From positions 419 to 64,418 of the forward strand of contig CAMAXU010000003.1 of NCBI GenBank assembly GCA_945862455.1: 64,000 nucleotides of DNA, written 5' to 3'. The translations under genes were made by a program, and so were the position numbers. The notes beneath the pieces were generated by a model. It made no database searches and had not been told where the DNA came from. It was given only the letters and a program-made list of their open reading frames with translations. This DNA comes from Rickettsia typhi. Its GTDB lineage: Bacteria > Pseudomonadota > Alphaproteobacteria > Rickettsiales > UBA1997. Below, one piece after another: positions 2 to 33,659 of this stretch; within the stretch, counting starts at the first letter, position 1, and the number at the start of each line of letters is the position of its first letter.

Positions 2-982
2 TGTGTGCTTGGATGTACGATTCCAGCGGGAAGTGGGACTTCTACAACACTTGTTGCACCAAGCACTACAACAGCAACTTGTAATTCATCTGGTTACTCA
101 GGAACGATGACTTTTAGCTGTAATCCGGGAAATGCAGTAAATATTACAACAGCTTGTGTCCAATCTTGTACAGCAAGTGGTGGAGTTACAGCTGATACTA
201 CTACAGTTCCGGGATCTAGTATATTTAAGTTTAATACGGTTGGGAGTTATACGCTTACATGTCCTAGTGCTAAAACTGCACAAGTTTTAGTTGTGGGCGG
301 AGGCGGAGGCGGCGGCAATGGTTTTGGTCAAAATGGCGGCGGTGGTGGTGGAGCTGGTGGCTTGGTTTACGCGGGATCTTATCCAATTACTGCAAATGTA
401 TCATACACAGTAACGGTTGGAGCTGGTGGTTCTACACAAACCACTGAAGGTGCTGCTGGAAATATTGGTTCTAATTCTGTATTTGGAGTCATCACCGCTT
501 ATGGCGGCGGTGGCGGTGGCTACAAAAATGGTGCATCGTCACCTCCGGGACCTGCAACTATAGGCGGTTCTGGTGGTGGTGGACCATTCAACGGACAAGG
601 AGCTGCTGCAACTCAAACTGCACAAACCTACCAAATGTATCACTTCGGAAATGCTGGCGGAAATGGACATCCTACTTCCCTATATATTACGGGCGGCGGT
701 GGCGGAGCTGGCGGAGCTGGAGGAAATGGATTGGTTTCAACTGGCGGATCTGGAGGTATAGGAGTGCAATTAGATATTACGGGAGTTAGTCTTTATTATG
801 CTGCTGGCGGCGGCGGAGCTGCTGGAAACTATACCAACCAAGGTATTGGAGGAAGTGGTATTGGCGGCAATGGCTCTACTACTAGCGGCACTTCAGGAAC
901 TGCAAATACTGGAAGTGGCGGCGGCGGTGGCGTTGGCAATGGAGGAGCGGGCGGTTCTGGAATTGTGATTGTACGTTATTAA
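2..982 (+). CDS. Glycine-rich repeat protein, 5'-truncated by the window edge (326 codons seen)
   Basis: The frame is open from nt 2, so the GTG at 5 is probably internal. An N-terminal Cys/Thr-rich part (CNSSGYSGTMTFSCNPGNAVNITTACVQSC) is followed by 'VLVVGGGGGGGNG' and many GGxGGxG runs. It ends in 'GSGIVIVRY', typical of bacterial/phage glycine-rich domain proteins. A strong terminator follows. Confidence 0.7.
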   Translation, partial: CVLGCTIPAGSGTSTTLVAPSTTTATCNSSGYSGTMTFSCNPGNAVNITTACVQSCTASGGVTADTTTVPGSSIFKFNTVGSYTLTCPSAKTAQVLVVGGGGGGGNGFGQNGGGGGGAGGLVYAGSYPITANVSYTVTVGAGGSTQTTEGAAGNIGSNSVFGVITAYGGGGGGYKNGASSPPGPATIGGSGGGGPFNGQGAAATQTAQTYQMYHFGNAGGNGHPTSLYITGGGGGAGGAGGNGLVSTGGSGGIGVQLDITGVSLYYAAGGGGAAGNYTNQGIGGSGIGGNGSTTSGTSGTANTGSGGGGGVGNGGAGGSGIVIVRY

Positions 983-1494: not shown

Positions 1495-2193
1495 ATGAAA
1501 AAATTTCTTTTATTTTCTGTGCTGGTTTTTGTTTCTTCATGCACTGGAAGTTGGAATTATGAAGGGCGCGGGGCTCCAAAAAATTGGGGAGATCTGAAAG
1601 AAGAATTCAAGTTTTGTAAAATCGGTTACAACCAATCACCAATTAATGTTACGTCTCAATTTGTCGAAAATGAGTTAAAATTTTCTTACAATAATTCTGA
1701 TGTAGAAAAGCAGCGCGTTGATCATGTGATGCAAATAATATATGACAGTAAAAATTTAGTGCTGCGCGGCAAAAAGAAATATTTTTTACGCAAAATTGAA
1801 TTTCATCATCCAAGTGAGCATTTAGTAAATGGCGAAGCGTCTTCAATGGAAATGCAAATTTATCATAAAAGTGAAGATGAACAATGGTTGGCTTTGGCGG
1901 TTTTTATGGAAATTGGTCAAGAAAATTTGGAAATTAAAAACATAATAAAATTGCTGCAAAGCAAAGAAAAACAAGGGAAATTGGATTTGTCAAAAATCAT
2001 TAAAGAAAAAGATCAAATATTTTTTTACGATGGTTCATTCACCACGCCGCCATGCAAAGAAGGCGTGAAATGGTATGTGATGAAAACTTTGATTACTGTT
2101 TCAAAAGAGCAGATGAATCAAATTATAAAATTGGGAATTTTTGCTAAATCAAACGCCAGACCGGTGCAAGAATTTCATCCGGAGAAATATTAA
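1495..2193 (+). CDS. Alpha-class carbonic anhydrase homologue, secreted, with a degenerate zinc triad
   Basis: Signal peptide/lipobox-like N-terminus (LVFVSSC). Alpha-CA hallmarks are present: SPINV, PSEH, GSFTTPPCKEGVKW, NARPVQ. The segment YFLRKIEFHHPSEHLVNGEASSMEMQIYH aligns to the bacterial alpha-CA consensus ..QFHFHAPSE......ME.H.VH. Confidence 0.85.
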   Translation: MKKFLLFSVLVFVSSCTGSWNYEGRGAPKNWGDLKEEFKFCKIGYNQSPINVTSQFVENELKFSYNNSDVEKQRVDHVMQIIYDSKNLVLRGKKKYFLRKIEFHHPSEHLVNGEASSMEMQIYHKSEDEQWLALAVFMEIGQENLEIKNIIKLLQSKEKQGKLDLSKIIKEKDQIFFYDGSFTTPPCKEGVKWYVMKTLITVSKEQMNQIIKLGIFAKSNARPVQEFHPEKY

Positions 2194-4640: not shown

Positions 4641-4879
4641 GAGCTTTTTTAAATTGACAATCTCGATGCCATATCAAATTCTTTGGACTTCGTTATATAT
4701 TTATTTTTTACTCGACACGAGTCCTATCCAGACTTGCGGGGAAACCAATAGCAAAGCAAACTTCGGTCGAGTTTCAAGTAGCTTTGGTTATAAATCGATT
4801 TAATAAATAAAATCTTGATGACATCGAAGAGAGTTCGATATCTTCAAATAGATTATTTTAAGAACAATCACCGATATTT

Positions 4880-5356
4880 TTACGGATGTAAATTTACCGA
4901 TTTTGTTTGATCATCTCGGAATTTCTTTAATTTTTCTGCCAAAACTTCATCTGACAAAGCTAAAATTGCAATTGCTAAGAGAGCGGCATTTTTGGCGCCA
5001 GCTTCACCAATTGCCAAGCATCCAACCGGAATTCCTGCTGGCATTTGAACTATCGAAAGTAACGAATCCATTCCTTTAAGCGCGCGGCTTTCAACTGGAA
5101 CGCCAAGAACCGGAAGTTCAGTCATTGCGGCGGTCATTCCCGGCAAATGAGCGGCACCACCGGCACCAGCGATTATTACTTTTATGCCATTTTCTTTTGC
5201 CGATTCACAAAATTCGTAAAGTCTTTTTGGAGTGCGATGTGCAGAAACAATTTTTGTTTCGTAAGAAACAGCAAAATTATCAAGAATTTTGCAGGCATGT
5301 TCCATGGTCGCAAAATCTGATTTGCTGCCCATGATGATTGAAACTTTGGTTATCAT
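4880..5356 (-). CDS. purE: N5-carboxyaminoimidazole ribonucleotide mutase
   Basis: 158 aa. IMGSKSD and [10 protein letters not shown] motifs, typical PurE length. Confidence 0.9.
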
Positions 5357-5379: not shown

Positions 5380-8300
5380 TTAAGGACACATGCCTGTGCA
5401 ACCTGCGCTGTTAAGAATTAGGGCATTATCAATACATTTTACTTCAAAATCTCCGTACATATTCCAGTTTCTTTTGCAGCCAAATCCATTGTCGACGCTG
5501 TCATGATTAGACTCTTTGCATGTATAAGTTTGATAATGATTTAATGATGATGAGACGCAGTTGCTATTAAAATGCACATATAATGTTCTATATTTGTCGC
5601 AGCCAGATATATCTCTTTCATAAGATGTTCTAACGCCATTTGGGTTTGATGCTGTTCCTCTGCTGCAACCTCTACAAGCTGAGCAAGCATTAGAAACTGA
5701 TCCCCAAGATCCGCTTGCGCTGCAAGTTATTGTTGGAGATATGTCTGTTCTATCATATGCATTTCTTCCACAGCTATTGTCATAACTTCCAGAAGTTCCT
5801 CCATCCACAGCTTTTCCATATCCAGATGCGCAGTTCAGAGTTATTGTAGTGCCTGCTGCGATATAAGTGTTGCCGAAGTAAGTTTGTCCGCTGGGAATAT
5901 CGTTTTTATTGCAATATTTTATACATTTCTTGCCACTATTTTCTATGGCATCAAAATAGAGTTGATCAATGTAATTAAGTCCATTTGACGCGTATGAACA
6001 TGTATAATTTGTGATCGCTGATTTATTAGTAGAGTCAATATAATCTGATTCCACATATCCACTTTTACAACTGCTTGTAGTTGGCGAACTGCCAAGTGGA
6101 ACATAGTGATTGGTTGTATCATAATTTGCATTACTATCAATATCATCACTAGAAGTTACAGTGCCATTGTCATCGACGATCATGCCATTATTGGCAACAC
6201 ATTGAGGTACAACATCATCCCATTTATGAGTAATTTCGTTACATTTTCTTGCCAAAGCATAATAACCAACGCCACTGGAAGCGCCAAGTCGATCTCTTTG
6301 ATAATGAACAGCATTTTGACCAGTAAGGATAGGATTAGTTATATAGGCTGTAACTCCAAAATTTGTATCAGGCCAGTTAACGGTAAGAGTTAATCCGCTA
6401 TTTGTTCCATCATTTGCCGAGATTAAATGTTGAGTTCGACCAGCTCCAATTCTTGAATCTCCGCTTCCGACACCAGTATCAGAATTTACGGAATAGCCGA
6501 TACATTTATTAATACAGCTTGAAGAAGTAGTGCTCCAAACATTTGCAGTTCCATTTGTAATGATAACCGAACGACAAACTCTTTGTGGGCGAGTCTCAAC
6601 TGCTCGAGTATCATTAGCAAGGTTGGTGGGAATTGTTCTTAATGCGCTATTTGCTCCACTGTCGGTGCGGTAAGGTCCACTGTTGCTAATTGTAAATGGA
6701 GTGCCGTCTTTATCATTAAGTGCTTGATATGGATATGGATAATAGTCGCTTTCACAACCGTCATTTCCAGAAGCTGTTGTGATCACACCATCAACCTGAC
6801 CATTCAAAGGAACTCCGATTACTTTGTTCCAATAAGCCATACCGCTTCCTGGAGAAGTTGTTATTGTGGCATCACATTGAGTAGTGCAAGGATTTATAAC
6901 TGGACCCCAATTTCCCATGTGATCACAATTGCGTGTTGGGTTAATGCCGCTATTTGGATCAGAAGAAGTTTGGTTAACTCTAAAGAAGCCCAAAGATTGA
7001 TTTCCACCGCCACATGATCCAGTTGCAACTGATTCTGTTTGAATGCGAAGTGGGCTTCTTGAAGCATTTGTGGTCGGGAATGTTGCGCCACCTGAATTAT
7101 ACCATTGTTGCCAATCAGATGTAGATGAAGGATTTGATGGCGGATTAATAGCCGGACATTGAATTCTTACGCAGGCATTTGTAACAGTTCCCCATTGACC
7201 AAGTTGGTTGCAAGATCTAGTTGGAGTAGTTCCTCCAGTATAATCTTGAATTGGCCCAAAGAATGGTCCACCGGGAACCAAAGGTGTTGCAACTTTACTG
7301 CCCGTATTAGTTGAAGTTGATCCAGTTCTTTTAAAGCCTGTAATGCAAGAAACGAAAGGGTTTGGAGAAGTTGGCGTTTCTAGAAAATCATTGGCTTTAG
7401 TGTAAGATGTCCAAGTAGCAAAACCATGTCCCGATCCTCTCGTACCAGAAAGGGCGCTCAAAGATTGATAAGTTGCTTCATTAACTTCAAGCGCTCCGTA
7501 ACCACCTTGATAAAGACCAGTTGCATCTGGTCCGGTTGTTGAAACTTCGTCACATGTATAGCGTATGCAAGGATTGGTAACTGCTGCATCCCATTGCGCT
7601 GCTCCATTAACATTCAGACAGCTTCTTTTTGGCGGAGTAACTACGCCGGCACCATTTTTAGCAGGGCGCCAGAATCCGGTGCAAGTTCCTTCAATATCAG
7701 ACATGCCAAAAACTCCAAGTGGGAATTCAGCATGGCCAGTTCCGGCACTGCGTAATTGATGTGAAATATGAACGACATTACTTGTAACTGAAGATGAGGC
7801 GCCGTAAGTAGAATAACCTAATGAAGATTGAGTAAAATCAGGATCGCTCGGGTTTGAAGTGTTTGCAGTGGTGTTATAATCAATTGCGCTGCAAATTTGT
7901 GGAACTGGCATGGTAACGCAAAGACCAGCTTCATGAAGAGTCTCAGTTCTAGCTATTTGATTATCTGCAAGTGTAGTTCCATCTATATAATCTATACATT
8001 TACAATTAGGAGTCTTACCGCCTTCTGGACAAGAAGAGGGATTGGCTACTAGACATTTGCCTCGAGTTCCGTCCGTCATTTTGTAGGCTATAATATTTCT
8101 TAATTTTGTTGCAAAACCAGAGCTGACACAAATTTCATTAAACCAGCCGTAATAATTACCGGTTGCAGCAGCAGAAAGGTTGGTATTGGTGATGGTCGAA
8201 GTGTCAGAAGTAGTGTTCCCTTTTTTCTTATTGCATAGCGGTAGCAGAATCTCGTTACAATTTTTTCTAACTGCAAGATATGAATCTATTGATCGTCCGG

Positions 8301-11172
8301 CATTTTTCTCGGTTTGCATCCTTACTTCATTGACAATGCATTCATTATTAAGTTGCGAACATTCTTCGCGTTGAACGCAAAGATTATATGATTCGGTCGT
8401 GGAGCTACAGGTTGGAATATTAACATCACTATTAGTCAATTTTATTTCTGCGCTACAGGCATCATCAACTGTGCAACTATTATCAATTCCATTAGCACCA
8501 AATCCACCTAAGTAACGAATTATAATAGAGGAATTGCTGTAAGTGCTTGCTGGGTCGAGAGAAAGCAGTATTTTTTTAGGACCCGTTTCTGGCAATGGTG
8601 ATGTAGCAGTATTGTTAATTTCCGGTAAAATTCTATCAACGCATCCGATTCTCATTGGGTTAAGGTATGTGCCGTTAATGTCTTTAATTTTACGGTAAAG
8701 GCAGAAAATTGGTTTTGATCCTGCATCATCATATTCTTTGCGTACAAAAGTTTCTAAAGAATAGGTAGCATTATTTACAGTGGTGCTTATTGTAGCGCTA
8801 CCATTAGAATCGCCACCAGTATTTTCATATCCGGTATATCCTATACCTAAACTAAGTTTTTTTGTAGTGGCGCCAAATTGAACAGTAATTTCTGGATAGT
8901 GGAAATCAGTCGGTCCATATTGTTCACTAGTTGCGTTAGAAATTGAGCCACCACGAACTATAGAAGAATTTAGAATATAAAGTGGCGGAGTAAAAAGTTT
9001 CAAAGAATTTGTAATATTTGCTAAATTAGAAAAACGAGGCGTGCCAATTCTTAATGCAGTTTTGATACATTCTTGCTCTGGAAATAATTGCCCGTCTTTA
9101 TCTAAATATCCCCTTACCGCGCTACCTGATGGTCGATTATTTTTAATATAAGGAATATGGTTTGATCCACCAAGCTTGATGGCTCGCCATTTTGTGGCTT
9201 CAGATTTGTTGTCAAAAGAACTTTTGCCACCATCGCATGATCCATCAGATTTGCGCAAGCCGGAAATACAAGTTCCATCACTTAATTTTTCAGAAGCATC
9301 AAGAAAATTCAAGGGATTGGAGTCTGGATAGGCTAATTGTCCTTTAACATCAAGGAAAGTACAAATTCGGTTATCGGGATATTTCACCGCTCTGATTCTA
9401 AGATAATTATCAATAATACTAGCGCATTTTTTGTTGTTAGCATTGGGATTTTGGGGATTTTGAAACATATCATTATTCATCATACATTCAGTTGGGGCAG
9501 TATCGGTTACGCTAAGTTCGCGACAAACGTCATAGCCGCAAACCTGATTTCTACAGACGTCAAATGCGCAACTAATACCGCATTCACGGGAACCACAGGT
9601 TTCAGATTTGCCGTCATCGGGACGCATTGCATTTTTAAAGCGCAAACAAACAACTAATTTATGGGTTCCAGAATTCTTAGTAAAGGTAGTTGAAACATAA
9701 CCTTTGTGGTAGGCAGTGTAATCAGAAACATTGGAATATAAGCTTCCACCGTTGCCGCAAAGATAAATATAACCATTGCCGCGGGAACCATCACGAATAC
9801 CACCACACAGACCAGGAGATCTGGTCTGGTCTGGTGATAAATAAGAATGATAATATCCCAGATCAATTGTTCCTAAAGGTTCCAAATCAATTCTCGGATG
9901 TGCACCCCAACCAAAGCTGTCCATTTGTGATTTACTATAACATAAACTACTATTCATGTTTCTCAATATTCCGCTATTATTAGTTGATTTATTCATCGGC
10001 TGAGGTCTATAAAACCATGAATTCATGGTATCAGAATTTGAGCCAATTGTTCCGTCATCAGATGGAGTTGAGGTTATGCATTCGGGTTGGGAGTTATTGG
10101 AAGATTGATTGCAATCAATTGTAAGATAACAATAGCTATTGGCGCAAGTTGCTCCTGCTCCGCTTGAATCACAAGAATTATTTCTTACCGTAGGTGTAGT
10201 GGCTTCATTTGGGGTGCAGCGATATTGTCTTTTTATGACCGGTTTGCAAGTAACAGCTGAACAAATCCCTGTTCCTAAGTCATAATTGGCATTAACATAT
10301 CTTTTATAATCTGCGACGTAAGATGTTCCTTGATTGGTAATATTTAAAGTATCATCAGTTCCACAAGTGGAAGATGAAGGAGGGCAATTGTGAATTTTGC
10401 ATGTGGTGTTTAAAACCATGTAAGGTAATTGTGCCTGAGTGAATTTATAGCATTTTAAAGTTGAGCCATCTGTAGCGGTATCGCCATTACAATATTTTTT
10501 TGGTATGTAAGATGAGTTTTCTGTCACTTTATCGAATTCTTTTTTAAATTTTGAATCATTTAGCTCATCAGGAGTCAATAAATTACAAGGAAGTAAATCA
10601 CAATTTACAGTTGGAGATGGTGAGCTAGTTTGATGACAGCTTCTACCAATAGAATTAGAAGTAGTTACAGTTATGCCTGATTCCGGAGTATCTTTAAATC
10701 TGATGCAATCGCGATTATGTACGGCATAATCAACGCCTCTGATATTTTGGGGTTCGCGGCTTGGATTAGGATCGGTAAAAGATGCGTCACTACATTCTCT
10801 AACGCAATTTTTTCCAGGATTAGCGGTGTTACCAGAGTCAATATCGCTGCATAAAGGCAAGTCGGACAAGTCAGCACAATTATAGCGGTGAATTTGACCG
10901 GAAGTTAAAACATAGGCTGAACTGACGGCATAAGAAGCGCTTGGAATTGTTTGGCAAAGTGGCTTTCCAAAAAATCCGCAACCACCATTTGCAGTGTCAG
11001 CGTAACCTGGTTTTGGAGTTCCTGCAACATTGGCGCAATCAGGAAGAGTAATGGAATGAGTTTGGGGAGAATAGAAAAAAAGTGAAATCCCGAAAATTAA
11101 AACGCCAAAACCCGACAAGCGTTTTGCAGCTTTTATGAATTTAGCGATTTTTTCAGGATTTATATAATTCAT
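5380..11172 (-). CDS. Giant secreted cysteine-rich protein (~1,930 aa), function unknown
   Basis: The 5,955-nt ORF is trimmed to the ATG at 11172 (MNYINPEKIAKFIKAAKRLSGFGVLIFGISLFFYS = basic n-region plus hydrophobic core). The upstream 54 codons overlap murD and look non-coding. About 92 Cys by manual count, rich in S/T/N/G, with repeated C..G[FY]...C...G.W....C modules in the C-terminal third. Confidence 0.8.
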   Translation of the reverse strand: MNYINPEKIAKFIKAAKRLSGFGVLIFGISLFFYSPQTHSITLPDCANVAGTPKPGYADTANGGCGFFGKPLCQTIPSASYAVSSAYVLTSGQIHRYNCADLSDLPLCSDIDSGNTANPGKNCVRECSDASFTDPNPSREPQNIRGVDYAVHNRDCIRFKDTPESGITVTTSNSIGRSCHQTSSPSPTVNCDLLPCNLLTPDELNDSKFKKEFDKVTENSSYIPKKYCNGDTATDGSTLKCYKFTQAQLPYMVLNTTCKIHNCPPSSSTCGTDDTLNITNQGTSYVADYKRYVNANYDLGTGICSAVTCKPVIKRQYRCTPNEATTPTVRNNSCDSSGAGATCANSYCYLTIDCNQSSNNSQPECITSTPSDDGTIGSNSDTMNSWFYRPQPMNKSTNNSGILRNMNSSLCYSKSQMDSFGWGAHPRIDLEPLGTIDLGYYHSYLSPDQTRSPGLCGGIRDGSRGNGYIYLCGNGGSLYSNVSDYTAYHKGYVSTTFTKNSGTHKLVVCLRFKNAMRPDDGKSETCGSRECGISCAFDVCRNQVCGYDVCRELSVTDTAPTECMMNNDMFQNPQNPNANNKKCASIIDNYLRIRAVKYPDNRICTFLDVKGQLAYPDSNPLNFLDASEKLSDGTCISGLRKSDGSCDGGKSSFDNKSEATKWRAIKLGGSNHIPYIKNNRPSGSAVRGYLDKDGQLFPEQECIKTALRIGTPRFSNLANITNSLKLFTPPLYILNSSIVRGGSISNATSEQYGPTDFHYPEITVQFGATTKKLSLGIGYTGYENTGGDSNGSATISTTVNNATYSLETFVRKEYDDAGSKPIFCLYRKIKDINGTYLNPMRIGCVDRILPEINNTATSPLPETGPKKILLSLDPASTYSNSSIIIRYLGGFGANGIDNSCTVDDACSAEIKLTNSDVNIPTCSSTTESYNLCVQREECSQLNNECIVNEVRMQTEKNAGRSIDSYLAVRKNCNEILLPLCNKKKGNTTSDTSTITNTNLSAAATGNYYGWFNEICVSSGFATKLRNIIAYKMTDGTRGKCLVANPSSCPEGGKTPNCKCIDYIDGTTLADNQIARTETLHEAGLCVTMPVPQICSAIDYNTTANTSNPSDPDFTQSSLGYSTYGASSSVTSNVVHISHQLRSAGTGHAEFPLGVFGMSDIEGTCTGFWRPAKNGAGVVTPPKRSCLNVNGAAQWDAAVTNPCIRYTCDEVSTTGPDATGLYQGGYGALEVNEATYQSLSALSGTRGSGHGFATWTSYTKANDFLETPTSPNPFVSCITGFKRTGSTSTNTGSKVATPLVPGGPFFGPIQDYTGGTTPTRSCNQLGQWGTVTNACVRIQCPAINPPSNPSSTSDWQQWYNSGGATFPTTNASRSPLRIQTESVATGSCGGGNQSLGFFRVNQTSSDPNSGINPTRNCDHMGNWGPVINPCTTQCDATITTSPGSGMAYWNKVIGVPLNGQVDGVITTASGNDGCESDYYPYPYQALNDKDGTPFTISNSGPYRTDSGANSALRTIPTNLANDTRAVETRPQRVCRSVIITNGTANVWSTTSSSCINKCIGYSVNSDTGVGSGDSRIGAGRTQHLISANDGTNSGLTLTVNWPDTNFGVTAYITNPILTGQNAVHYQRDRLGASSGVGYYALARKCNEITHKWDDVVPQCVANNGMIVDDNGTVTSSDDIDSNANYDTTNHYVPLGSSPTTSSCKSGYVESDYIDSTNKSAITNYTCSYASNGLNYIDQLYFDAIENSGKKCIKYCNKNDIPSGQTYFGNTYIAAGTTITLNCASGYGKAVDGGTSGSYDNSCGRNAYDRTDISPTITCSASGSWGSVSNACSACRGCSRGTASNPNGVRTSYERDISGCDKYRTLYVHFNSNCVSSSLNHYQTYTCKESNHDSVDNGFGCKRNWNMYGDFEVKCIDNALILNSAGCTGMCP

Positions 11173-12538
11173 CAAAAAGCTTACAGAAGTAGTCTCCGCG
11201 TTGTTCAAAATTTTTCCATTGATCAAAAGACGCGCAAGCCGGTGAAAGTAAAATGTTCTTTTCAGATAAGCTAATATTTTTTGCATCAAAAAATGCTTTT
11301 TTAAAAGCACTCTCCAAATCACCGCATTTTTCAAAAGCGACGGAATTTTCTTTTAAGGTTTTAGCAAATTCTTCGCTGGCATCGCCAATTAAATAAGCTT
11401 TATGAATTTTATGAAAAAATGGTGTTAAAATTGCAATGCCACCTTCTTTGGATTTGCCGCCTAAAATCCAGAAAATTTTATCATAAGCTTTTAATGCATT
11501 TTCGGTTGATTCAGCATTAGTTGCTTTGCTGTCATTAATAAATTTGATGCCATCAATTTCACCAAGCAATTGCAAACGATGACGCAAGCCACGGAATTTT
11601 TTGATGGCAGAAATTATTTTTTCTTCATCGCATTTTTGTGAATTTCTGAGAAAATGACAGTAAGTTATGGCAAAAGCAAAAGCCATATTTTGGTTATTAT
11701 GTTCGCCGCGCAGGAAATCAGATTTTAATTCTAAAAATGAGTTAGAGCCTTTGATTTTGTTATATAAATTGCCACCAAAAAGTGTGACACCATTTTCCTG
11801 AATTTTTTTGGTCGAAATCGGAACTAAACTAGCATGAAAATTTTTATCTTTTTTTAATTCATCGTAAACTTTTTTGGAATTTTCATTATCCACGTCAATT
11901 AAAGCAAAATCATCAACGATTTGGTTTTGAAAAATTCTTTTTTTTACTTCAATATAATTCGCAAGCGAGCCGTGGCGATCAATATGATCTGGCGTGATAT
12001 TTAAAAGTGCGGCGACTTTGAAATGTGACTGCCCAAAAAGATCAAGTTGGTAAGAAGAAGTTTCAAAAATATAAGAAAATTTTTTCTGATTTTGAGGTAA
12101 ATCAAAACAAGGAATACCAATATTGCCGCCAATTTCTGAAGCAATTTCAAGTTCTTTAAAAATAAAACCGCTTAATGCTGTGGTTGTTGATTTGCCGTTA
12201 GTTCCAGTGATGGCGATGAAATTATTATTTTGGCAATTTTTGCGATAAAAAATTTCTAGATCGCAAGCTAAAGTAGCGCCAGTTTTTTGACAGATTTCTA
12301 AAATTTTATGCGGTTGCGGGTAATAAAGTGGAATGCCGGGAGAAAATACTATTACAGTGTCTTTGTCATATTTAATTTCATCTGCTTTGGCAAATTTGAT
12401 GTGAGGGTTTTTGGTGCTAGCATTAACAAGTGATTTTTCATTGTCGTCGGTTGCAATAACTTCTTCGCCATTTTGGGCGAGAAAATTTACTGTAGAAATT
12501 CCGGAAATTCCCAGACCGTAAACAACGTATTTTGTCAT
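11153..12538 (-). CDS. murD: UDP-N-acetylmuramoylalanine--D-glutamate ligase
   Basis: 461 aa. Mur ligase P-loop GTNGKSTT, typical MurD N-terminus (GLGISG) and length. Confidence 0.9.
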   Translation of the reverse strand: MTKYVVYGLGISGISTVNFLAQNGEEVIATDDNEKSLVNASTKNPHIKFAKADEIKYDKDTVIVFSPGIPLYYPQPHKILEICQKTGATLACDLEIFYRKNCQNNNFIAITGTNGKSTTTALSGFIFKELEIASEIGGNIGIPCFDLPQNQKKFSYIFETSSYQLDLFGQSHFKVAALLNITPDHIDRHGSLANYIEVKKRIFQNQIVDDFALIDVDNENSKKVYDELKKDKNFHASLVPISTKKIQENGVTLFGGNLYNKIKGSNSFLELKSDFLRGEHNNQNMAFAFAITYCHFLRNSQKCDEEKIISAIKKFRGLRHRLQLLGEIDGIKFINDSKATNAESTENALKAYDKIFWILGGKSKEGGIAILTPFFHKIHKAYLIGDASEEFAKTLKENSVAFEKCGDLESAFKKAFFDAKNISLSEKNILLSPACASFDQWKNFEQRGDYFCKLFDELYKS

Positions 12539-26852: not shown

Positions 26853-27686
26853 ATGGAACAAAAGCTTGAAGAAATCAAAAACGAAAATCGCCAAGAAGCT
26901 GACGAATATTTTGATTTCATCAAAAAATCTGTTGATGACGGTAGTTATTTTAAGGATGCCGTAAACTGGTATTTCTTTCGTTACGTTACCCCAATTTGCG
27001 ATCGTACCTTGTTGATTTTTGGCGCGATGATTGCATTCGTAGTTTTGTTTTTTTTGATTCAGATGGTGCGAAGCGCCTTTCCTTTGGTTGAACAAGTGCC
27101 GATTTTTATTCAAGCTGGAGATCGTTCACTTACATTTCCTAATCTTATCAATTTAAAACCAAAAAAAGGGCAGGATGGATATGATCCGCAAATTACAACT
27201 GTGGATGAAGCAGTAGCTAAATACCTAATTACGGATTATGTGAAAGAGCGCGAATCTTTTGATTTTAGAAGAGGTGAAATTGAAGATGTAAACAATAAAC
27301 TAAATCACATTAGAAATATTTCGACGGATAATGAATATAAGATTTTTAGATTGACAATGAGTAAGGATAATCCGGACAGTCCGATTAATTTTTATGGTCA
27401 AAATGTAGTTAAAAATATCCAGATCGATTCAATAAAATTAGTTAAAATAGAGCCAAAAGATTTTGCTCAAAAAGCACGTCAATATTTATCCAACAAAATT
27501 CCAACTGAAGCCGAAGTGCGCTTTAGTGCCAATACTAAATCTATTGATTTGGAAACTGGAGTAGTAACCGAGAAAAAAGATCGTTATATTGTTAAAATAA
27601 AATTTGCTTTTGATGGCGTTAAAAAAGGCGAAAAAGGCGTTATTAATTTCTTGGTCAATGGCTATAAACTCTATAAGGTAAAATGA
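26853..27686 (+). CDS. virB8: Type IV secretion system protein VirB8 family (Rickettsiales rvh-like)
   Basis: 277 aa with a cytoplasmic N-terminus, one TM (LLIFGAMIAFVVLFFLI) and a periplasmic domain with a YLITDYVKERESFDF motif. It is ATGA-coupled to the virB9 homologue downstream. Confidence 0.7.
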   Translation: MEQKLEEIKNENRQEADEYFDFIKKSVDDGSYFKDAVNWYFFRYVTPICDRTLLIFGAMIAFVVLFFLIQMVRSAFPLVEQVPIFIQAGDRSLTFPNLINLKPKKGQDGYDPQITTVDEAVAKYLITDYVKERESFDFRRGEIEDVNNKLNHIRNISTDNEYKIFRLTMSKDNPDSPINFYGQNVVKNIQIDSIKLVKIEPKDFAQKARQYLSNKIPTEAEVRFSANTKSIDLETGVVTEKKDRYIVKIKFAFDGVKKGEKGVINFLVNGYKLYKVK

Positions 27687-28633
27687 AAAAATTTCTATTT
27701 TGTTTTTTGGCAATTTGCTGCTTTTCTTCAATGGCTCAAGCTGTTCAATTGCCACGTTATCTTGGAACTGAAAAAAAATTCCGCAGCTATATTTACAATC
27801 CAAATGATGTTTACCGCTATATCGGGCATTATACTTACCAAGGTTTTATTGAATTTGAGGAAGGGGAAACTATCAGCACGATTTCAATGGGAGACCCATC
27901 TTTATGGTTGATTGAGAATTTGGGAAATCGTCTTTTCTTAAAACCAGTTGGCGAAGATAATTCTGAAACCAATATGACGGTTATTAGCAACAAGCGCGTT
28001 TATCATTTTGAATTAATGGCTAAAGAAGCGAAAGGTATTGCTGACAAAGATTTAATCTTCGTTGCTAAATTTGTTTATCCTGATGAAAAAGATAAAAACA
28101 TCGTAGAATTTCCAAAATCTTCACCATCTGATGAACCTGATATGCGTGATTTATCGCTTTATAATTTCGATTATCAATATACGGGAGAGCCAGCAATTGC
28201 ACCAGTCAAAGTTTTTGACAATGGTGAATTTACCTACTTCCAATTTACTAAGAAAAACGCGGAAATTCCGGCAATTTTCTCAGTTGACACTGGTGGTTTT
28301 GAATCGCTAGTTAACTTCAGATCTGCGGGCAGTTATATCATTGTTGAGCGCGTTTCGCCTCAATATACTTTGAGAAGCGGCAGCGACATTGTCTGTGTTT
28401 ATAACACCGATCTTTACACTAATGGTCGTGCTCGACAATCAACTTTAAAAAACAAAGATGGCGCGCCGCCGCAACCAACCAGTTTTGGCGCCCCATCTGC
28501 AGGAGGATCTTCTTCGGGCGGATCTTCAATGCCAGTGATGTTAGATAATACTTCGCAAGGTTCACAAGGTATGCCAGTAGGTATGCCAGCTGAAATGTCG
28601 CAAATGCCTAGAATGCCGGGTCAAGCTTATTAA
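27683..28633 (+). CDS. virB9: Type IV secretion system protein VirB9 family with a low-complexity C-terminal tail
   Basis: Signal peptide. N-domain (YIYNPNDVYRY...RVYHFEL) and C-domain (VFDNGEFTYFQF...SLVNFR...IIVERV) patterns of VirB9/CagX. An extra ~65-aa G/S/P/M-rich tail ends in MPVGMPAEMSQMPRMPGQAY. Confidence 0.8.
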   Translation: MKKFLFCFLAICCFSSMAQAVQLPRYLGTEKKFRSYIYNPNDVYRYIGHYTYQGFIEFEEGETISTISMGDPSLWLIENLGNRLFLKPVGEDNSETNMTVISNKRVYHFELMAKEAKGIADKDLIFVAKFVYPDEKDKNIVEFPKSSPSDEPDMRDLSLYNFDYQYTGEPAIAPVKVFDNGEFTYFQFTKKNAEIPAIFSVDTGGFESLVNFRSAGSYIIVERVSPQYTLRSGSDIVCVYNTDLYTNGRARQSTLKNKDGAPPQPTSFGAPSAGGSSSGGSSMPVMLDNTSQGSQGMPVGMPAEMSQMPRMPGQAY

Positions 28634-28650: not shown

Positions 28651-31233
28651 ATGAACACAATTCCAAACTATAACCACAAAACTGCTGAAAAAAAATGGCA
28701 GCAAAGCTGGGAAGAAAAAGCGATTTTTAAATTTGACGAAAATTCTGCTAAAGAAAAATATTATGTGCTGGAAATGTTTCCTTATCCATCAGGAAAAATT
28801 CACATGGGACATTTGCGCAACTATACAATAGGCGATGCCATCGCCCGTTTTAAAAAGTTGCAAGGTTTTAATGTTCTTCATCCAATGGGTTTTGATGCTT
28901 TTGGCTTACCGGCAGAAAACGCTGCTTTAGAGCATAAAGTTCATCCAGAAAAATGGACTTTGGAAAATATTAAAACTATGAGTGCCGATTTAAAATCAAT
29001 CGGTTTGTCATTGGATTGGAGTCGCCAAGTTGTAACTTGTTTGCCCGATTATTACAAACATGAGCAAAAAATTTTCATCGATTTTTTAAAAGCTGGTTTG
29101 GCTTATCAAAAAGAATCTTTCGTAAATTGGGATCCGATTGACCAAACAGTTTTGGCAAATGAACAAGTAATTGATGGTCGCGGTTGGCGAAGTGGCGCGT
29201 TGGTGGAAAAGAAAAAATTGAATCAATGGTTTTTAAAAGTTTCTGATTTTTCAGAAGAACTTTTAGCTGAATTAAAAAACCTCAAAGGTTGGGACGAACG
29301 CGTTTTAACCATGCAAGAAAGATGGATTGGCAAAAGCGAAGGTCAAATTATCGATTTTAAACTTGCTGATTCTGCTGCGAAAATTTCAGTTTATACAACT
29401 CGTCCCGACACTTTATTCGGCGCTTCATTCATTGGAATTTCACCGCATCATCCAATTGCGCAAGAATTGGCGCAAAAAAACTCGGAAATAAAAACCTTCA
29501 TTGAAACTTGTAATCGCAATGCTGTTGACGAACAAACCATCGAAAAACAAGAAAAAACCGGCATTAAAACTGGTTTGCAAGTTGTTCATCCGCTAGATCG
29601 AAATTGGAAACTTGATGTTTATATCGCCAATTTCGTTTTAATGGAATATGGCACGGGAGCAATATTTGCCTGCCCAGCGCACGATGTTCGCGATTTTGAA
29701 TTTGCTAAAAAATATAATTTACCAATTAAGCAAGTTGTTGGGTCGGTTGTAGTTCATAATTCTGAAAATTTAATTCCAAATATTTTGGTTGAACCGCTTG
29801 ATGACAACGAGCGTTTGAAAGAATTAAATCTGCCTTATCTTGAAGATGGCATCATCATTAATTCTGATTTTTTAAACGGCTTAACTTGCGCGCAAGCGAA
29901 AGAAAAAGTTTTTGAAATTTTATCGGCAAAAAATGAAGCGACAAAAAAAATAAATTATCGTTTGCGCGATTGGGGCGTTTCGCGCCAGCGTTATTGGGGT
30001 TGCCCGATTCCAATTCTTTATTTGGAAGATGGAACAATTGTTCCAGTTCCAGAAGAAGAACTTCCGGTTGAATTGCCTAAAGATGTTGAATTTAATGGCT
30101 TGGGAAATCCTCTCGCACAACATCCGACTTGGAAATATACAACTTACAAAGGTAAAAAAGCGATTCGTGAAACCGACACTTTTGACACTTTTTTTGAAAG
30201 CTCTTGGTATTATTTGCGCTATATTTCTCAGCCTCAAGACCAAGCTTTTGATAAAGATGCGGCGAATAAATTCATGGCGGTCGATCAATATATTGGTGGC
30301 GTTGAACATGCGGTGTTGCATTTACTTTACGCTCGTTTTTTCACCAAAGCGCTAAAAAAATGCAGCTATTTAGATATTTCTGAACCTTTCGCGAACCTGC
30401 TTACACAAGGCATGGTTTGCCACCAAACTTTCAAAGATAAAGCTACGGGAAAATGGATTTTTCCAAATGATGCCGCAGCGCGCAGTGCTGACGAAGTGAT
30501 TTTAGGTCGCAGCGAAAAAATGAGTAAATCTAAAAAAAACGTAGTTGATCCATCGCACATTGTTGAAAGTTACGGTGCAGATACCGCGCGCCTTTTCATG
30601 CTTTCTGACACTCCGGCTTCGCGTGATTTAGATTGGTCGGAAGGCGGAATTGATGGCGCTTGGAAATATATAAATCGTTTGTGGAAATTGGTTATGTCAA
30701 ATATTGACAACAAAGGTGAGGGCGAAATTTCGCCAAGTCATCCAATAACTAAACTTACGCATAAAACCATTGCCATTGTCAAAGAAGAATTTGAAAAAAT
30801 GGGCTTTAACCGCTCAATTGCTAAGATCCGCGAATTTTCAAACGCTTTAGAAAAATTTGAACCAAAATCGACAATTGACAAAAAAGTAATGAATTTTGCT
30901 TTGAATAATTTGGTGATTTTAATTTCTCCAATCATGCCGCATTTAGCAGAAGAGCTTTGGGAAAAATTGGGAAATAGAACTTTGGTAAGTGCTGAAAAAT
31001 TCCCTGATTTTAATCCAGCTTTAATTTTGGAAGATGAAGTTGGAGTTGCAATTCAAGTTGCAGGAAAGCTACGCGCCGTAATTCAAATGCCAAAAGGAAC
31101 CACAAAAGAAGAAATGGAAAAATTGGCTTTTGAAAATGAAAATGTGAAGAAATTTATCGAAGGTAAGGAAGTTAAAAAAGTGATTTCAGTGCCGGATAAA
31201 TTGGTGAATATTGTGGTTGCAGGATCTATCTGA
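28651..31233 (+). CDS. leuS: Leucine--tRNA ligase
   Basis: 860 aa. HMGHLRNY (HIGH) and KMSKSKKN (KMSKS) motifs. Confidence 0.95.
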   Translation: MNTIPNYNHKTAEKKWQQSWEEKAIFKFDENSAKEKYYVLEMFPYPSGKIHMGHLRNYTIGDAIARFKKLQGFNVLHPMGFDAFGLPAENAALEHKVHPEKWTLENIKTMSADLKSIGLSLDWSRQVVTCLPDYYKHEQKIFIDFLKAGLAYQKESFVNWDPIDQTVLANEQVIDGRGWRSGALVEKKKLNQWFLKVSDFSEELLAELKNLKGWDERVLTMQERWIGKSEGQIIDFKLADSAAKISVYTTRPDTLFGASFIGISPHHPIAQELAQKNSEIKTFIETCNRNAVDEQTIEKQEKTGIKTGLQVVHPLDRNWKLDVYIANFVLMEYGTGAIFACPAHDVRDFEFAKKYNLPIKQVVGSVVVHNSENLIPNILVEPLDDNERLKELNLPYLEDGIIINSDFLNGLTCAQAKEKVFEILSAKNEATKKINYRLRDWGVSRQRYWGCPIPILYLEDGTIVPVPEEELPVELPKDVEFNGLGNPLAQHPTWKYTTYKGKKAIRETDTFDTFFESSWYYLRYISQPQDQAFDKDAANKFMAVDQYIGGVEHAVLHLLYARFFTKALKKCSYLDISEPFANLLTQGMVCHQTFKDKATGKWIFPNDAAARSADEVILGRSEKMSKSKKNVVDPSHIVESYGADTARLFMLSDTPASRDLDWSEGGIDGAWKYINRLWKLVMSNIDNKGEGEISPSHPITKLTHKTIAIVKEEFEKMGFNRSIAKIREFSNALEKFEPKSTIDKKVMNFALNNLVILISPIMPHLAEELWEKLGNRTLVSAEKFPDFNPALILEDEVGVAIQVAGKLRAVIQMPKGTTKEEMEKLAFENENVKKFIEGKEVKKVISVPDKLVNIVVAGSI

Positions 31234-32138: not shown

Positions 32139-32161
32139 GACTTTTTATAATTTAAACAATT

Positions 32162-32187
32162 CCAGCCATCAAATTCATGATGGCTGG
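32162..32187 (-). terminator. Hairpin between the carD stop and the lolD start (possible terminator/attenuator)
   Basis: 10-bp perfect stem ccagccatca/tgatggctgg with a 6-nt loop. The downstream U-run on the minus strand is weak. Confidence 0.45.
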
Positions 32188-32197
32188 GAAATAATGA

Positions 32198-33427: not shown

Positions 33428-33659
33428 AAAATTTTAAATTATTAATTATAGGATTTTTTTTCAATATCGAAGGACGGGCTTCAACTAGATTTCGAACCCG
33501 CATAATACCTGCTTTTTGACTTGGTGCAAGAATTTTTTTTAAAAAAAATATTCTCATTTAAAAAAAGTTAAATAACGTGCGCACTCCTTAAATCTAAGAC
33601 ACTTTACTTAGCCTAAGCGCCACACCATATTTGACCTCCTAATAACCTTCCTTACTTCA

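What the first reader, a model, noticed from the sequence alone, without database searches (positions are those of the whole stretch)
5674..7683. Array of sushi/CCP-like cysteine modules in the C-terminal third of the giant protein
At least four modules share the pattern C-x-x-G-[FY]-...-[RT]-x-C-...-G-x-W-[GD]-x-V-x-N-x-C-x(3,4)-C. Module 1 (7552..7683): CTGFWRPAK...RSCLNVNGAAQWDAAVTNPCIRYTC. Module 2 (7156..7347): CITGFKRTG...RSCNQLGQWGTVTNACVRIQC. Module 3 (6874..7024): CGGGNQSLGFFRV...RNCDHMGNWGPVINPCTTQC. Module 4 (5674..5832): CASGYGKAV...ITCSASGSWGSVSNACSAC. The 'C..G[FY].L.G...C...G.W....P.C' arrangement is the hallmark of eukaryotic complement-control-protein (sushi) domains, which are rare in bacteria. 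More degenerate copies seem to lie between these four (e.g. ...RVCRSVIITNGTANVWSTTSSSCINKC). If confirmed, this is a eukaryote-like domain array in a probable intracellular bacterium.
Basis: partly seen in the sequence, partly recalled or inferred. Interest (0 to 1): 0.75.

Follow-up and report, generated by a model that had tools for sequence, protein, structure and literature searches.

The report
Bacterial sushi-domain stalk with swappable tip
The last third of a 1,930-residue, cysteine-rich exported protein of an uncultured freshwater Rickettsiales-like bacterium is a chain of seven enlarged sushi (CCP) modules, a fold best known from animal complement regulators, ending in a roughly 95-residue tip that is swapped wholesale between strains.

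Summary
Re-phased, aa 1148-1887 (window 5674-7893, minus strand) form seven tandem modules of 80-128 aa, joined by 3-4-residue linkers.

Evidence:
- Pfam Sushi is absent on the whole query. It reaches 20.3 bits (cut-off 20.7) on isolated CCP7 and passes the cut-off in orthologous modules of two homologues.
- A CCP7 profile hits only CCP or sushi-like chains in the PDB (CD55, E=2.9e-4). In 1.84 billion proteins its best hits outside the family include genuine multi-Sushi proteins.
- An AlphaFold model (pLDDT 81.5) gives Foldseek hits that are CCP proteins in the top 24 of the PDB (factor H, CD55, CD46).
- CCP5 and CCP6 rest on pattern and model only. Disulfide topology could not be checked.

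The gene is bacterial, single-copy, under purifying selection, and syntenic (murD-giant-purE) in eight related genomes. "Intracellular" is not shown.

New here: the ~95 aa after Cys1890 are replaced like a cassette. Body identity is 93% against tail identity of 24%, while the same tail type occurs on a body only 46% identical.

Function, inferred only: a surface stalk carrying a polymorphic recognition tip.

The parts
5380..11172 (-). Giant gene: 1,930-aa cysteine-rich exported protein (stop codon at 5380-5382; start M55 of the mechanical ORF 5380..11334).
   Evidence: ORF. The start follows the homologue consensus 'MNxxNxK...'. 147 homologues were found (the 120 listed are mostly 1,800-2,200 aa), none carrying a functional name. 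dN/dS is 0.17-0.32 against L001 and L002.
11047..11172 (-). N-terminal basic stretch plus hydrophobic segment (MNYINPEKIAKFIKAAKR-LSGFGVLIFGISLFFY-SPQTHS): probable Sec signal peptide or signal anchor.
   Evidence: Read directly from the sequence and conserved in the family consensus. No predictor was run, so this is inference.
7894..11046 (-). N-terminal ~1,050-aa region with 56 Cys, of which 48 are at least 96% conserved and all are at least 76% conserved; fold unknown.
   Evidence: Cys conservation. AlphaFold pLDDT 79.7. No Foldseek PDB hit with probability above 0.23. No Pfam or NCBIfam hit.
7567..7893 (-). CCP1: C1148, C1218, C1239, C1256 (109 aa); Trp1248 invariant.
   Evidence: Re-phased module. 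hhalign to CCP3 gives 87%. Model pLDDT about 90. The CCP7 profile ends in register at C1256.
7171..7554 (-). CCP2: C1261, C1330, C1375, C1388 (128 aa, with a low-confidence insertion loop).
   Evidence: The orthologous module in P0117 passes Pfam Sushi at 25.7 bits. hhalign gives CCP2-CCP3 96.5% and CCP2-CCP4 96.1%. The CCP7 profile scores 11.4 bits at 1367-1388.
6886..7158 (-). CCP3: C1393, C1441, C1470, C1483 (91 aa); starts 'CPAINPP'.
   Evidence: hhalign to CCP7 gives 89% over 54 columns. The CCP7 profile scores 13.9 bits at 1423-1486. Its only PDB sequence hit is the EphA2 sushi-like region at E=4.5, which is not significant.
6514..6876 (-). CCP4: C1487, C1527, C1587, C1607 (121 aa).
   Evidence: hhalign to CCP2 gives 96.1%. 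pLDDT about 88. Homologues P0073 and P0057 carry a beta/gamma-crystallin domain inserted in this module.
6202..6504 (-). CCP5 (less certain): C1611, no C2, C1698. Trp1705 is invariant. C1712 lies where C4 would be.
   Evidence: Assigned from the pattern and the AlphaFold model only. hhalign to other modules is 27% or less. There is a weak HRM hit at the orthologous region of P0073.
5923..6201 (-). CCP6 (less certain): C1712 ('CVANNG...'), C1756, C1779, C1804 (93 aa); no Trp between C3 and C4.
   Evidence: Assigned from the pattern and the AlphaFold model. hhalign is 32% or less. No PDB sequence hit.
5674..5913 (-). CCP7: C1808, C1835, C1871, then C1884 or C1887 as C4, plus one extra Cys pair involving C1855 (80 aa). 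This is the best sushi match.
   Evidence: Pfam Sushi E=7.5e-4, 20.3 bits. 8 of 20 orthologous modules hit Sushi. The PDB profile search finds CD55 at E=2.9e-4 and only CCP or sushi-like chains. C1855 is gained or lost together with C1884/C1887.
5383..5673 (-). Hypervariable Cys-rich C-terminal tip (aa 1888-1984; 8 Cys counted from invariant C1890). Exchanged like a cassette between lineages; fold unknown.
   Evidence: dN is 0.64-0.73 here against 0.06-0.11 in the body. Nucleotide identity to L001 and L002 is 0.40-0.52 here against 0.8-0.95 on both sides. Tail identity to P0001 is 24% (body 93%) and to P0050 is 67% (body 46%). No Pfam or PDB match.
11153..12538 (-). murD, immediately upstream. 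Its end overlaps the start of the giant gene by 20 nt.
   Evidence: Translation. A Mur ligase gene lies in the same position in L008. The order murD-giant-purE is conserved in L001-L008.
4880..5356 (-). purE, 23 nt downstream of the giant gene's stop codon. This leaves no room for an immunity-type ORF.
   Evidence: Pfam AIRC, E=2.7e-65. Synteny.

Best explanation
Residues 1148-1887 of a Sec-exported, disulfide-rich 1,930-aa protein are seven tandem, divergent members of the sushi/CCP superfamily.

Shown or well supported:
- Each module has the C1...C2-x2-G-[FY]...C3...W...C4 layout.
- Successive modules are joined by 3-4-residue linkers (IRYT, VRIQ, TTQ, INK, IKY), as in complement regulators.
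- Each module is inflated to 80-128 aa by lineage-specific loop insertions.
- The array follows a conserved ~1,050-aa cysteine-rich region of unknown fold.
- It ends in a ~95-aa cysteine-rich tip that is replaced wholesale between strains and shared between distant lineages.

Inferred:
- The protein is exported and oxidised in the periplasm.
- It is displayed on the envelope, where the CCP chain acts as a semi-rigid 'beads-on-a-string' stalk.
- The stalk presents the polymorphic tip for recognition of a variable external partner: a host or prey cell surface, kin, or a phage or grazer that selects for tip diversity.

The confidence of 0.8 refers to the structural identity as a tandem sushi-superfamily array. 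The surface stalk-and-tip function is about 0.35.
For: Sequence:
- Pfam Sushi scores 20.3 bits on query CCP7, with residues 6-34 aligned to profile positions 5-33. That covers C1808-C1835 as the first half of a Sushi.
- Hits above the cut-off occur at orthologous CCP7 and CCP2 in P0087 and P0117.
- 8 of 20 CCP7 orthologues hit Sushi. All other hits are to the sushi-like HRM or Ephrin_CRD models.
- One orthologue aligns residues 3-68 to Sushi profile positions 1-52, which places the re-phased C1 on Sushi C1.
- The CCP7 profile against PDB sequences gives 52 of 52 hits that are CCP or sushi-like chains, aligned in register at C2, C3, W and C4.
- Against 1.84 billion proteins, its best hits outside the family include proteins with 12-26 Pfam Sushi repeats: scallop CR2-like, amphioxus SVEP1-like and others.
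- Modules are linked to one another: CCP7-CCP3 89%, CCP3-CCP2 96.5%, CCP3-CCP1 87%, CCP2-CCP4 96%. In-register hits of the CCP7 profile occur within the query.

Fold:
- The AlphaFold model of aa 1140-1984 has pLDDT 81.5.
- The top 24 Foldseek PDB hits are all CCP proteins: factor H E=4.9e-6 over 894 columns, and CD55 with probability 1.00.
- The top BFVD hits are herpesvirus and poxvirus complement-control proteins, the best at E=1.3e-7.

Cys parity: 56 Cys lie before C1148 and 36 from C1148 onward, so the re-phased modules are self-contained.

Bacterial and functional:
- The murD-giant-purE synteny is conserved in eight genomes.
- dN/dS is 0.17-0.32.

Tip:
- The Cys count is even in 110 of 118 tails, which suggests a disulfide-bonded fold maintained despite sequence turnover.
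Against: - Six of the seven query modules have no Pfam hit even at E<=10. The whole protein shows none.
- Profiles of CCP3 and CCP6 find nothing significant in PDB sequences.
- CCP5 and CCP6 share six Cys rather than eight, and CCP6 lacks the Trp.
- Foldseek TM-scores are low (0.1-0.47). This is expected for flexible multi-domain chains, but it means no single module was superposed on its own.
- Nothing shows surface exposure or a secretion route across the outer membrane.
- The body is well conserved, which fits a housekeeping envelope role as well as an adhesin.
Confidence: 0.8

Rival explanations
1. The CCP array is a periplasmic or envelope scaffold with a housekeeping role, for example linked to cell-wall synthesis, rather than a displayed recognition fibre. 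The variable tail would then be a poorly constrained appendix.
For: - The gene sits directly after murD with a 20-nt overlap in close relatives, and in fixed synteny in eight genomes.
- It is single-copy, and purifying selection acts on the body.
- The N-terminal hydrophobic segment could be an uncleaved inner-membrane anchor.
- No outer-membrane or secretion signal was recognised.
Against: - The tail keeps an even number of Cys in 110 of 118 homologues, and a conserved C-x-D-[GN] motif.
- The same tail type recurs on bodies only 40-47% identical. This indicates exchange and selection rather than decay.
- In more distant relatives, murD and the giant gene are separated by 85-200 nt.
- A chain of seven CCPs plus a 1,050-aa domain is long for a periplasm. 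This last point is inference.
Confidence: 0.2
2. The repeats are a lineage-specific four-cysteine module that only resembles sushi by convergence. The unit would be the one the reader drew: C-x2-G-[FY]...C...W...C-x3-4-C.
For: - Most query modules have no Pfam hit.
- Scores where present are marginal, at 14-25 bits.
- The modules are up to twice the canonical length.
Against: - Hits are exclusively to the Sushi, HRM and Ephrin_CRD models and to CCP chains, never to other Cys-rich families.
- Foldseek recovers CCP proteins from two independent libraries.
Confidence: 0.07
3. The protein is a polymorphic toxin. The conserved body would deliver a variable C-terminal toxin domain, as in CdiA or Rhs proteins.
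For: - There is a sharp junction after a conserved motif (C-x-x-C-R-x-C), followed by unrelated C-terminal domains.
- Tail types are exchanged between lineages.
Against: - No immunity gene is present. purE starts 23 nt after the stop codon in the window, and follows directly in L001-L003 and L005-L008.
- No toxin family or any Pfam or PADLOC-independent match was found for 34 tails, and no PDB sequence match.
- The tails are small and hold 4-14 Cys, unlike known cytoplasm-acting toxin domains. That comparison rests on established knowledge, not on a test here.
Confidence: 0.06
4. The sushi-like stretch is eukaryotic contamination, or a very recent transfer from an animal or protist.
For: Sushi domains are overwhelmingly eukaryotic and viral. 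The best hits outside the family include animal proteins.
Against: - The array lies inside one uninterrupted bacterial ORF, between murD and purE, in eight genomes with giant-protein identity of about 33-82%. One of them is on a contig of about 1 Mb.
- GC content is uniform with the flanks.
- Identity to eukaryotic sushi domains is too low for Pfam to detect most modules.
Confidence: 0.01

Closest known systems
Regulators of complement activation and other animal CCP/SCR arrays (factor H, CD55/DAF, CD46, C4BP, CR1, Crry, beta2-glycoprotein I; Pfam PF00084)
   Same: - Tandem modules with four Cys, a Trp between C3 and C4, G-[FY] after C2, and 3-4-residue linkers.
- Best sequence-profile hits in the PDB.
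- Best structural hits.
   Different: - The host is bacterial.
- Modules are 80-128 aa instead of about 60, because of loop insertions.
- Most modules fall below Pfam's threshold.
- CCP5 and CCP6 lack one disulfide between them.
- The array is attached to a 1,050-aa region of unknown fold and a hypervariable tip.
- There is no evidence of any complement-related role.
Viral complement-control proteins (gammaherpesvirus ORF4/KCP-like, poxvirus VCP/C3)
   Same: These are CCP arrays outside animals. They are the top Foldseek matches in BFVD: E=1.3e-7, 4.5e-5 and 1.7e-4, with probability at least 0.99.
   Different: The viral proteins are recent captures from vertebrate hosts with canonical 60-aa modules. 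The family here is deeply divergent, and vertically inherited in a bacterial lineage.
Sushi-like domains of Eph receptors (PF25599 Ephrin_CRD) and class-B GPCR hormone-receptor domains (PF02793 HRM)
   Same: Marginal Pfam hits to these models occur at CCP7 and CCP5 of homologues. CRF-receptor ectodomains and EphA2 appear in the PDB profile searches.
   Different: In eukaryotes these are single ligand-binding domains, not 7-module arrays. All scores here are below the curated cut-offs.
Proteins with exchangeable C-terminal domains (CdiA-CT and Rhs toxins; phage tail-fibre tips; polymorphic recognition proteins such as Myxococcus TraA). This is a functional analogy recalled from knowledge, not tested as homology.
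   Same: A conserved body, a sharp junction, and unrelated terminal domains shared across lineages.
   Different: No immunity gene, no recognised toxin or tail-fibre domain, and a tip that is small and disulfide-rich.

Membership tests
Sushi/CCP/SCR domain (Pfam PF00084 and its sushi-like relatives) | Match to the family's sequence profile at or above the curated threshold. | tested here: inconclusive
   - Whole query: no hit.
- Isolated query CCP7: 20.3 bits against a cut-off of 20.7, E=7.5e-4. The other six modules give nothing.
- Orthologous modules in homologues pass: P0087 25.4 bits and P0117 25.7 bits.
- The family profile of CCP7 hits CD55 at E=2.9e-4 and only CCP or sushi-like chains. 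It also hits multi-Sushi proteins at E down to 1e-40.
Sushi/CCP/SCR domain (Pfam PF00084 and its sushi-like relatives) | Four conserved Cys per module in the order C1...C2...C3...C4. | tested here: met
   CCP1-4 and CCP7 each have four Cys, conserved at or near 100% in 117 homologues apart from the C4 of CCP7, whose position shifts between family variants. CCP5 and CCP6 together have six, so one disulfide is missing. This caveat applies to those two modules.
Sushi/CCP/SCR domain (Pfam PF00084 and its sushi-like relatives) | Conserved Trp between C3 and C4, and a Gly-aromatic pair after C2. | tested here: met
   - Trp1248 and Trp1705 are invariant. Trp1381, Trp1476 and Trp1600 are at least 90% conserved.
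- Trp1877 is invariant among 20 CCP7 orthologues.
- CCP6 lacks the Trp.
- G-[FY] follows C2 in CCP1, 2, 3, 6 and 7.
Sushi/CCP/SCR domain (Pfam PF00084 and its sushi-like relatives) | Compact beta-sandwich fold superposable on solved CCP modules. | tested here: met
   - AlphaFold model with pLDDT 81.5.
- Foldseek top 24 PDB hits are all CCP proteins: factor H E=4.9e-6 and CD55 probability 1.00.
- Top BFVD hits are viral CCP proteins.
- The test was done on the whole array only. No single module was superposed, and TM-scores are low because of inter-module flexibility.
Sushi/CCP/SCR domain (Pfam PF00084 and its sushi-like relatives) | Disulfide topology C1-C3 and C2-C4. | not testable with these tools
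   Model coordinates are not returned. Indirect support only: alignment in register with CD55 C2, C3 and C4, alignment with Sushi C1, and even Cys parity at the array boundary.
Sushi/CCP/SCR domain (Pfam PF00084 and its sushi-like relatives) | Tandem arrangement with short (3-8 residue) linkers between C4 and the next C1. | tested here: met
   The linkers are IRYT, VRIQ, TTQ, INK and IKY, each 3-4 residues. There is no linker between CCP5 and CCP6.
Sushi/CCP/SCR domain (Pfam PF00084 and its sushi-like relatives) | Module length of about 60 residues. | tested here: not met
   C1-to-C4 spans are 109, 128, 91, 121, about 101, 93 and 77-80 aa. Compact orthologues of CCP7, with 64-70 aa, exist in other family members. 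The excess is therefore loop insertion.
Polymorphic toxin systems (CdiA/Rhs-type) | A variable C-terminal domain followed by a cognate immunity gene. | tested here: not met
   The variable C-terminal domain is present. However, purE begins 23 nt after the stop codon and follows directly in related genomes.
Polymorphic toxin systems (CdiA/Rhs-type) | A recognisable toxin domain in the variable part. | tested here: not met
   34 diverse tails have no meaningful Pfam hit and no PDB sequence hit below E=0.09.
Diversity-generating retroelement target | A template repeat near the gene that matches the variable region. | tested here: not met
   tblastn of 118 tails against the 64-kb window finds only the tail itself. 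The tails differ in length and over their whole sequence, not at scattered sites. A reverse transcriptase was not specifically searched for.

The most novel reading that the evidence does not exclude
An entire uncultured Rickettsiales-like freshwater lineage carries a core, vertically inherited surface fibre. Its stalk is built from ancient bacterial sushi modules, and its disulfide-rich tip is exchanged horizontally as a cassette. This would be a bacterial recognition system (host or prey attachment, kin discrimination, or a phage-receptor arms race) of a kind not yet described, in a group relevant to how Rickettsiales first became host-associated.
Probability: 0.25. Interest if true: 0.75.

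Novelty: new variant of a known kind. Interest (0 to 1): 0.58.

Why it matters
Sushi/CCP arrays are textbook animal, and virus-captured, protein-interaction modules. Here a seven-module array is a conserved, single-copy part of a giant envelope protein across a deep lineage of uncultured Rickettsiales-like bacteria with genomes of roughly 1 Mb. This shows the fold has been maintained in bacteria over a long time, rather than being a recent mimicry capture.

The cassette-like hypervariable tip at the end of the stalk points to a cell-surface recognition function under frequency-dependent selection. That gives a concrete, testable handle on how these organisms interact with hosts, grazers or phages.

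It also shows that Pfam thresholds miss most of these modules, so bacterial sushi-like domains may be under-counted.

Tried and rejected
- Pfam and NCBIfam on the full-length protein gave nothing relevant.
- Pfam on each isolated module hit only CCP7.
- Family profiles against PDB sequences gave little: CCP3 only EphA2 at E=4.5, CCP6 nothing, and the whole family nothing.
- The N-terminal 1,060 aa was modelled with AlphaFold (pLDDT 79.7). Foldseek found no credible match: probability 0.23 or less, with only weak beta-propeller-type names.
- I considered whether the tail is an eighth CCP, with C1890 as C1 and 'K-C-x-D-G-x-[WFY]...C' as C3-W-C4. Pfam on 34 tails and a PDB profile search gave no support, so it is left as unknown fold.
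- I searched for silent tail cassettes or a DGR template in the window and found none.
- I looked for model coordinates to measure disulfide distances. They are not exposed.
- Four literature searches found no description of this family or of sushi arrays in Rickettsiales. One apparent hit was the 'SushiLab' GitHub name.
- The metagenomic HRM/Sushi-repeat protein P0125, a possible bacterial relative, lies on a gene-sparse contig with a Ser/Thr kinase. It is probably eukaryotic or viral.
- A LeuRS search for a named relative returned only MAG labels: Rickettsiales bacterium, Pseudomonadota bacterium, and Alphaproteobacteria bacterium RIFCSPLOWO2_01_FULL_40_26.
Full report
**What is at the coordinates**

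The finding lies inside one minus-strand ORF (5380..11334). The consensus N-terminus of the homologues ('MNxxNxK...') matches Met55 at 11172, giving a 1,930-aa protein. I number residues from the mechanical ORF start, so window coordinate = 11334-3(n-1).

- module 1 at 7552-7683
- module 2 at 7156-7347
- module 4 at 5674-5832
- the 'degenerate copy' at 6502-6582

The protein has 92 Cys. In an alignment of 117 full-length homologues nearly all of them are conserved at 96-100%.

**More than chance**

The core motif [RT]-x-C...W...C-x(2-4)-C occurs three times, against a mean of 0.03 in 2,000 shuffles.

**The repeat is out of phase**

In CCP arrays, C4 of one module is followed after 3-8 residues by C1 of the next. 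Read that way, the Cys fall into groups of four:

| Module | Cys |
|---|---|
| CCP1 | 1148, 1218, 1239, 1256 |
| CCP2 | 1261, 1330, 1375, 1388 |
| CCP3 | 1393, 1441, 1470, 1483 |
| CCP4 | 1487, 1527, 1587, 1607 |
| CCP5 + CCP6 | 1611, 1698, 1712, 1756, 1779, 1804 |
| CCP7 | 1808, 1835, 1871, 1884/1887, plus an extra pair involving 1855 |

The linkers are IRYT, VRIQ, TTQ, INK and IKY.

Several results support this phase:
- Pfam Sushi aligns residues 6-34 of the isolated last module to profile positions 5-33.
- An orthologous module aligns residues 3-68 to Sushi positions 1-52, putting the re-phased C1 on Sushi C1.
- Segments after the re-phased C1 read like sushi starts: 'CPAINPP', 'CVANNGMIV', and consensus 'CPxI' and 'CPG'.
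- 56 Cys precede C1148 and 36 follow from it.

**Is it sushi? Sequence evidence**

- The whole query has no Sushi hit. NCBIfam finds nothing.
- Isolated CCP7 scores 20.3 bits, E=7.5e-4, just under the 20.7 cut-off. The other six modules and the tail give nothing even at E<=10.
- In homologues, Sushi passes the cut-off at positions orthologous to CCP7 (P0087, 25.4 bits) and CCP2 (P0117, 25.7 bits).
- Of 20 CCP7 orthologues, 8 hit Sushi, 7 hit Ephrin_CRD and 2 hit HRM, and no other family appears.
- A profile of these 20 modules, searched against all PDB sequences, returns 52 hits. Every one is a CCP protein or a sushi-like receptor ectodomain. The best are CD55 (E=2.9e-4) and C4BP (1.5e-3), aligned in register at C2, C3, Trp and C4.
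- The same profile, searched against 1.84 billion representative proteins, gives 107 hits at E<=1e-3. The best outside the family (E=1e-40 to 1e-11) carry 9-26 Pfam Sushi repeats or HRM/Sushi repeats. Those with names are scallop CR2-like, amphioxus SVEP1-like and another SVEP1-like protein; a frog hemicentin-like protein is also hit but was not scanned with Pfam.
- Within the query, this profile also hits CCP3 (13.9 bits) and CCP2 (11.4 bits). It touches CCP1, CCP4 and CCP6 weakly but in register.
- hhalign links CCP7-CCP3 (89%), CCP3-CCP2 (96.5%), CCP3-CCP1 (87%) and CCP2-CCP4 (96%).
- CCP5 and CCP6 are not linked at sequence level, with 35% or less.

**Structural evidence**

AlphaFold2 on aa 1140-1984, with 39 homologues, gave mean pLDDT 81.5. 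Per-module means are about 78-90, and the tail about 65.

Foldseek against the PDB puts CCP proteins in all of the top 24 places:
- full-length factor H, E=4.9e-6 over 894 columns
- CD55, E=2.7e-4, probability 1.00
- CD46, Crry, beta2-GPI, factor B, CR1 and MASPs

Against BFVD, the top three hits are gammaherpesvirus complement-binding/ORF4 proteins (E=1.3e-7 to 1.7e-4, probability at least 0.99). Another herpesvirus regulator and a poxvirus complement-control protein follow.

TM-scores are low, as expected for flexible bead chains. Coordinates are not exposed, so I could not test the 1-3/2-4 disulfide topology or superpose single modules.

**Membership verdict**

These are divergent members of the sushi superfamily, enlarged to 80-128 aa by loop insertions. 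Compact orthologues of CCP7 with 64-70 aa exist in other family members. Two homologues even carry a beta/gamma-crystallin domain inserted in CCP4. CCP5 and CCP6 rest on pattern and the model only.

**The rest of the protein**

The N-terminus has a basic stretch and a 16-residue hydrophobic segment followed by 'SPQTHS'. I read this as a Sec signal peptide or anchor; no predictor was run.

Residues ~97-1147 hold 56 Cys, all at least 76% conserved and most invariant. They were modelled at pLDDT 79.7. There is no credible structural match (probability 0.23 or less) and no family hit.

**Genomic and organismal context**

The neighbouring genes are murD (its end overlaps the giant gene's start by 20 nt) and purE (23 nt after the stop codon).

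The order purF-SLT-NDUFA12-MlaD-DUF2155-rpe-murD-giant-purE is kept, as far as each contig extends, in seven GTDB species representatives. All are lake or other environmental alphaproteobacterial MAGs, with giant-protein identity of 33-82%. The NDUFA12-to-purE part is also kept on a 0.95-Mb contig.

dN/dS against two relatives is 0.17-0.32 in both the N-terminal region and the CCP array. This is a real, vertically inherited bacterial gene, not contamination.

The window also encodes VirB8 and VirB9 next to leuS, together with purE, purF, leuD, GAPDH, CstA and transporters. The nearest named LeuRS relatives are only MAG labels such as 'Rickettsiales bacterium'. The Rickettsiales-type T4SS is also reported in putatively free-living deep-branching Rickettsiales (PMC9352585). 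An intracellular lifestyle is therefore possible but not shown.

**An unexpected feature: the tip**

After invariant Cys1890 the last ~95 aa behave differently from the rest.
- dN is 0.64-0.73 here, against 0.06-0.11 elsewhere.
- Nucleotide identity to L001 and L002 is 0.8-0.95 through CCP4-7 and again in purE. It drops to 0.40-0.52 at 5400-5600.
- The query's body is 93% identical to P0001 but the tails are 24% identical.
- The query's tail is 67% identical to that of P0050, whose body is only 46% identical. P0001 and P0046 show the same pattern.
- The breakpoint falls right after 'C-x-x-C-R-x-C-S'.
- The 118 tails fall into 74 clusters at 40% identity or more, of which 53 are singletons. Yet 110 of 118 keep an even Cys count, and nearly all keep a 'C-x-D-[GN]' motif.
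- No silent copies lie elsewhere in the window.
- No Pfam or PDB sequence match exists for the tails.
- There is no room for an immunity gene.

**Mechanism**

Shown:
- a tandem sushi-superfamily array with short linkers
- a conserved body
- a tip that is replaced like a cassette

Inferred:
- export by Sec and oxidative folding
- display on the envelope, with the CCP chain as a semi-rigid stalk
- a polymorphic tip that either binds a variable external partner, or is itself the target of phage or grazer recognition that selects for diversity

I give about 0.35 to this function. Rivals are a periplasmic scaffold tied to cell-wall genes (0.2), convergence rather than homology (0.07), a polymorphic toxin (0.06) and contamination (0.01).

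**Novelty**

I found no description of this family. Sushi domains in bacteria are listed in databases but rarely studied; that statement rests on my own knowledge.

I rate this a new variant of a known kind. The fold is known, but three things are new: the enlarged modules, the lineage-wide bacterial conservation, and the attachment to an unknown 1,050-aa region and a horizontally exchanged tip.

Noticed in passing
window 5383-5673 (minus strand), aa 1888-1984: The C-terminal ~95 aa are hypervariable and exchanged like a cassette. Tail identity to P0001 is 24% (body 93%), but 67% to P0050 (body 46%). Nucleotide identity to L001 and L002 falls to 0.40-0.52 between conserved CCP7 and purE. There are 74 tail clusters among 118 homologues, and the Cys count is even in 110 of 118.
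   Followed up: yes
window 7894-11046 (minus strand), aa ~97-1147: The N-terminal two-thirds of the giant protein holds 56 Cys, nearly all invariant in the family. It was modelled at pLDDT 79.7 but has no Pfam, NCBIfam, PDB sequence or credible Foldseek match. It may be an undescribed disulfide-rich fold or folds.
   Followed up: partly
window 11153-11172; loci L001-L008: The murD stop overlaps the giant gene's start by 20 nt. The gene order purF-SLT-NDUFA12-MlaD-DUF2155-rpe-murD-giant-purE is conserved across eight genomes whose giant proteins are about 33-82% identical. In distant relatives the murD-giant gap is 85-200 nt.
   Followed up: partly
homologues P0073 (aa 1434-1512) and P0057 (aa 1493-1531), inserted at query aa ~1505-1509 (window ~6810-6822): Some family members carry a beta/gamma-crystallin domain (PF00030; 25.3 bits against a cut-off of 25 in P0073) inserted in a loop of CCP4. 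The module loops therefore tolerate whole-domain insertions.
   Followed up: partly
window 26853-28633 (+): VirB8-like and VirB9/CagX-like genes sit directly upstream of leuS. This is a scattered T4SS island of the kind seen in Rickettsiales, and it is the main hint about the organism's affiliation.
   Followed up: partly
window 28651-31233 (+) and its homologues: The window's LeuRS is 860 aa. Many related MAGs have a LeuRS of 1,010-1,090 aa with an added transglutaminase-like domain (PF01841).
   Followed up: no
window 1495-2193 (+): An alpha-class ('eukaryotic-type', PF00194) carbonic anhydrase of 232 aa lies near the giant gene.
   Followed up: no
window 4700-4880 versus L001 and L002: Synteny with the two closest species representatives ends just beyond purE, where nucleotide identity drops to about 0.41. 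The giant gene's tail and purE therefore sit next to a second variable junction.
   Followed up: no
window 5-982 (+): An ORF with a glycine-rich domain (PF21722 Gly_rich_2, E=8.6e-26) lies at the window edge. Its function is unknown.
   Followed up: no
window 32198-33427 (-): A CarD-family protein carries a ~185-aa N-terminal extension, with the CarD domains at aa 187-338 of 409. It lies in a stretch with strongly negative AT skew (-0.21 at 32001-34000).
   Followed up: no
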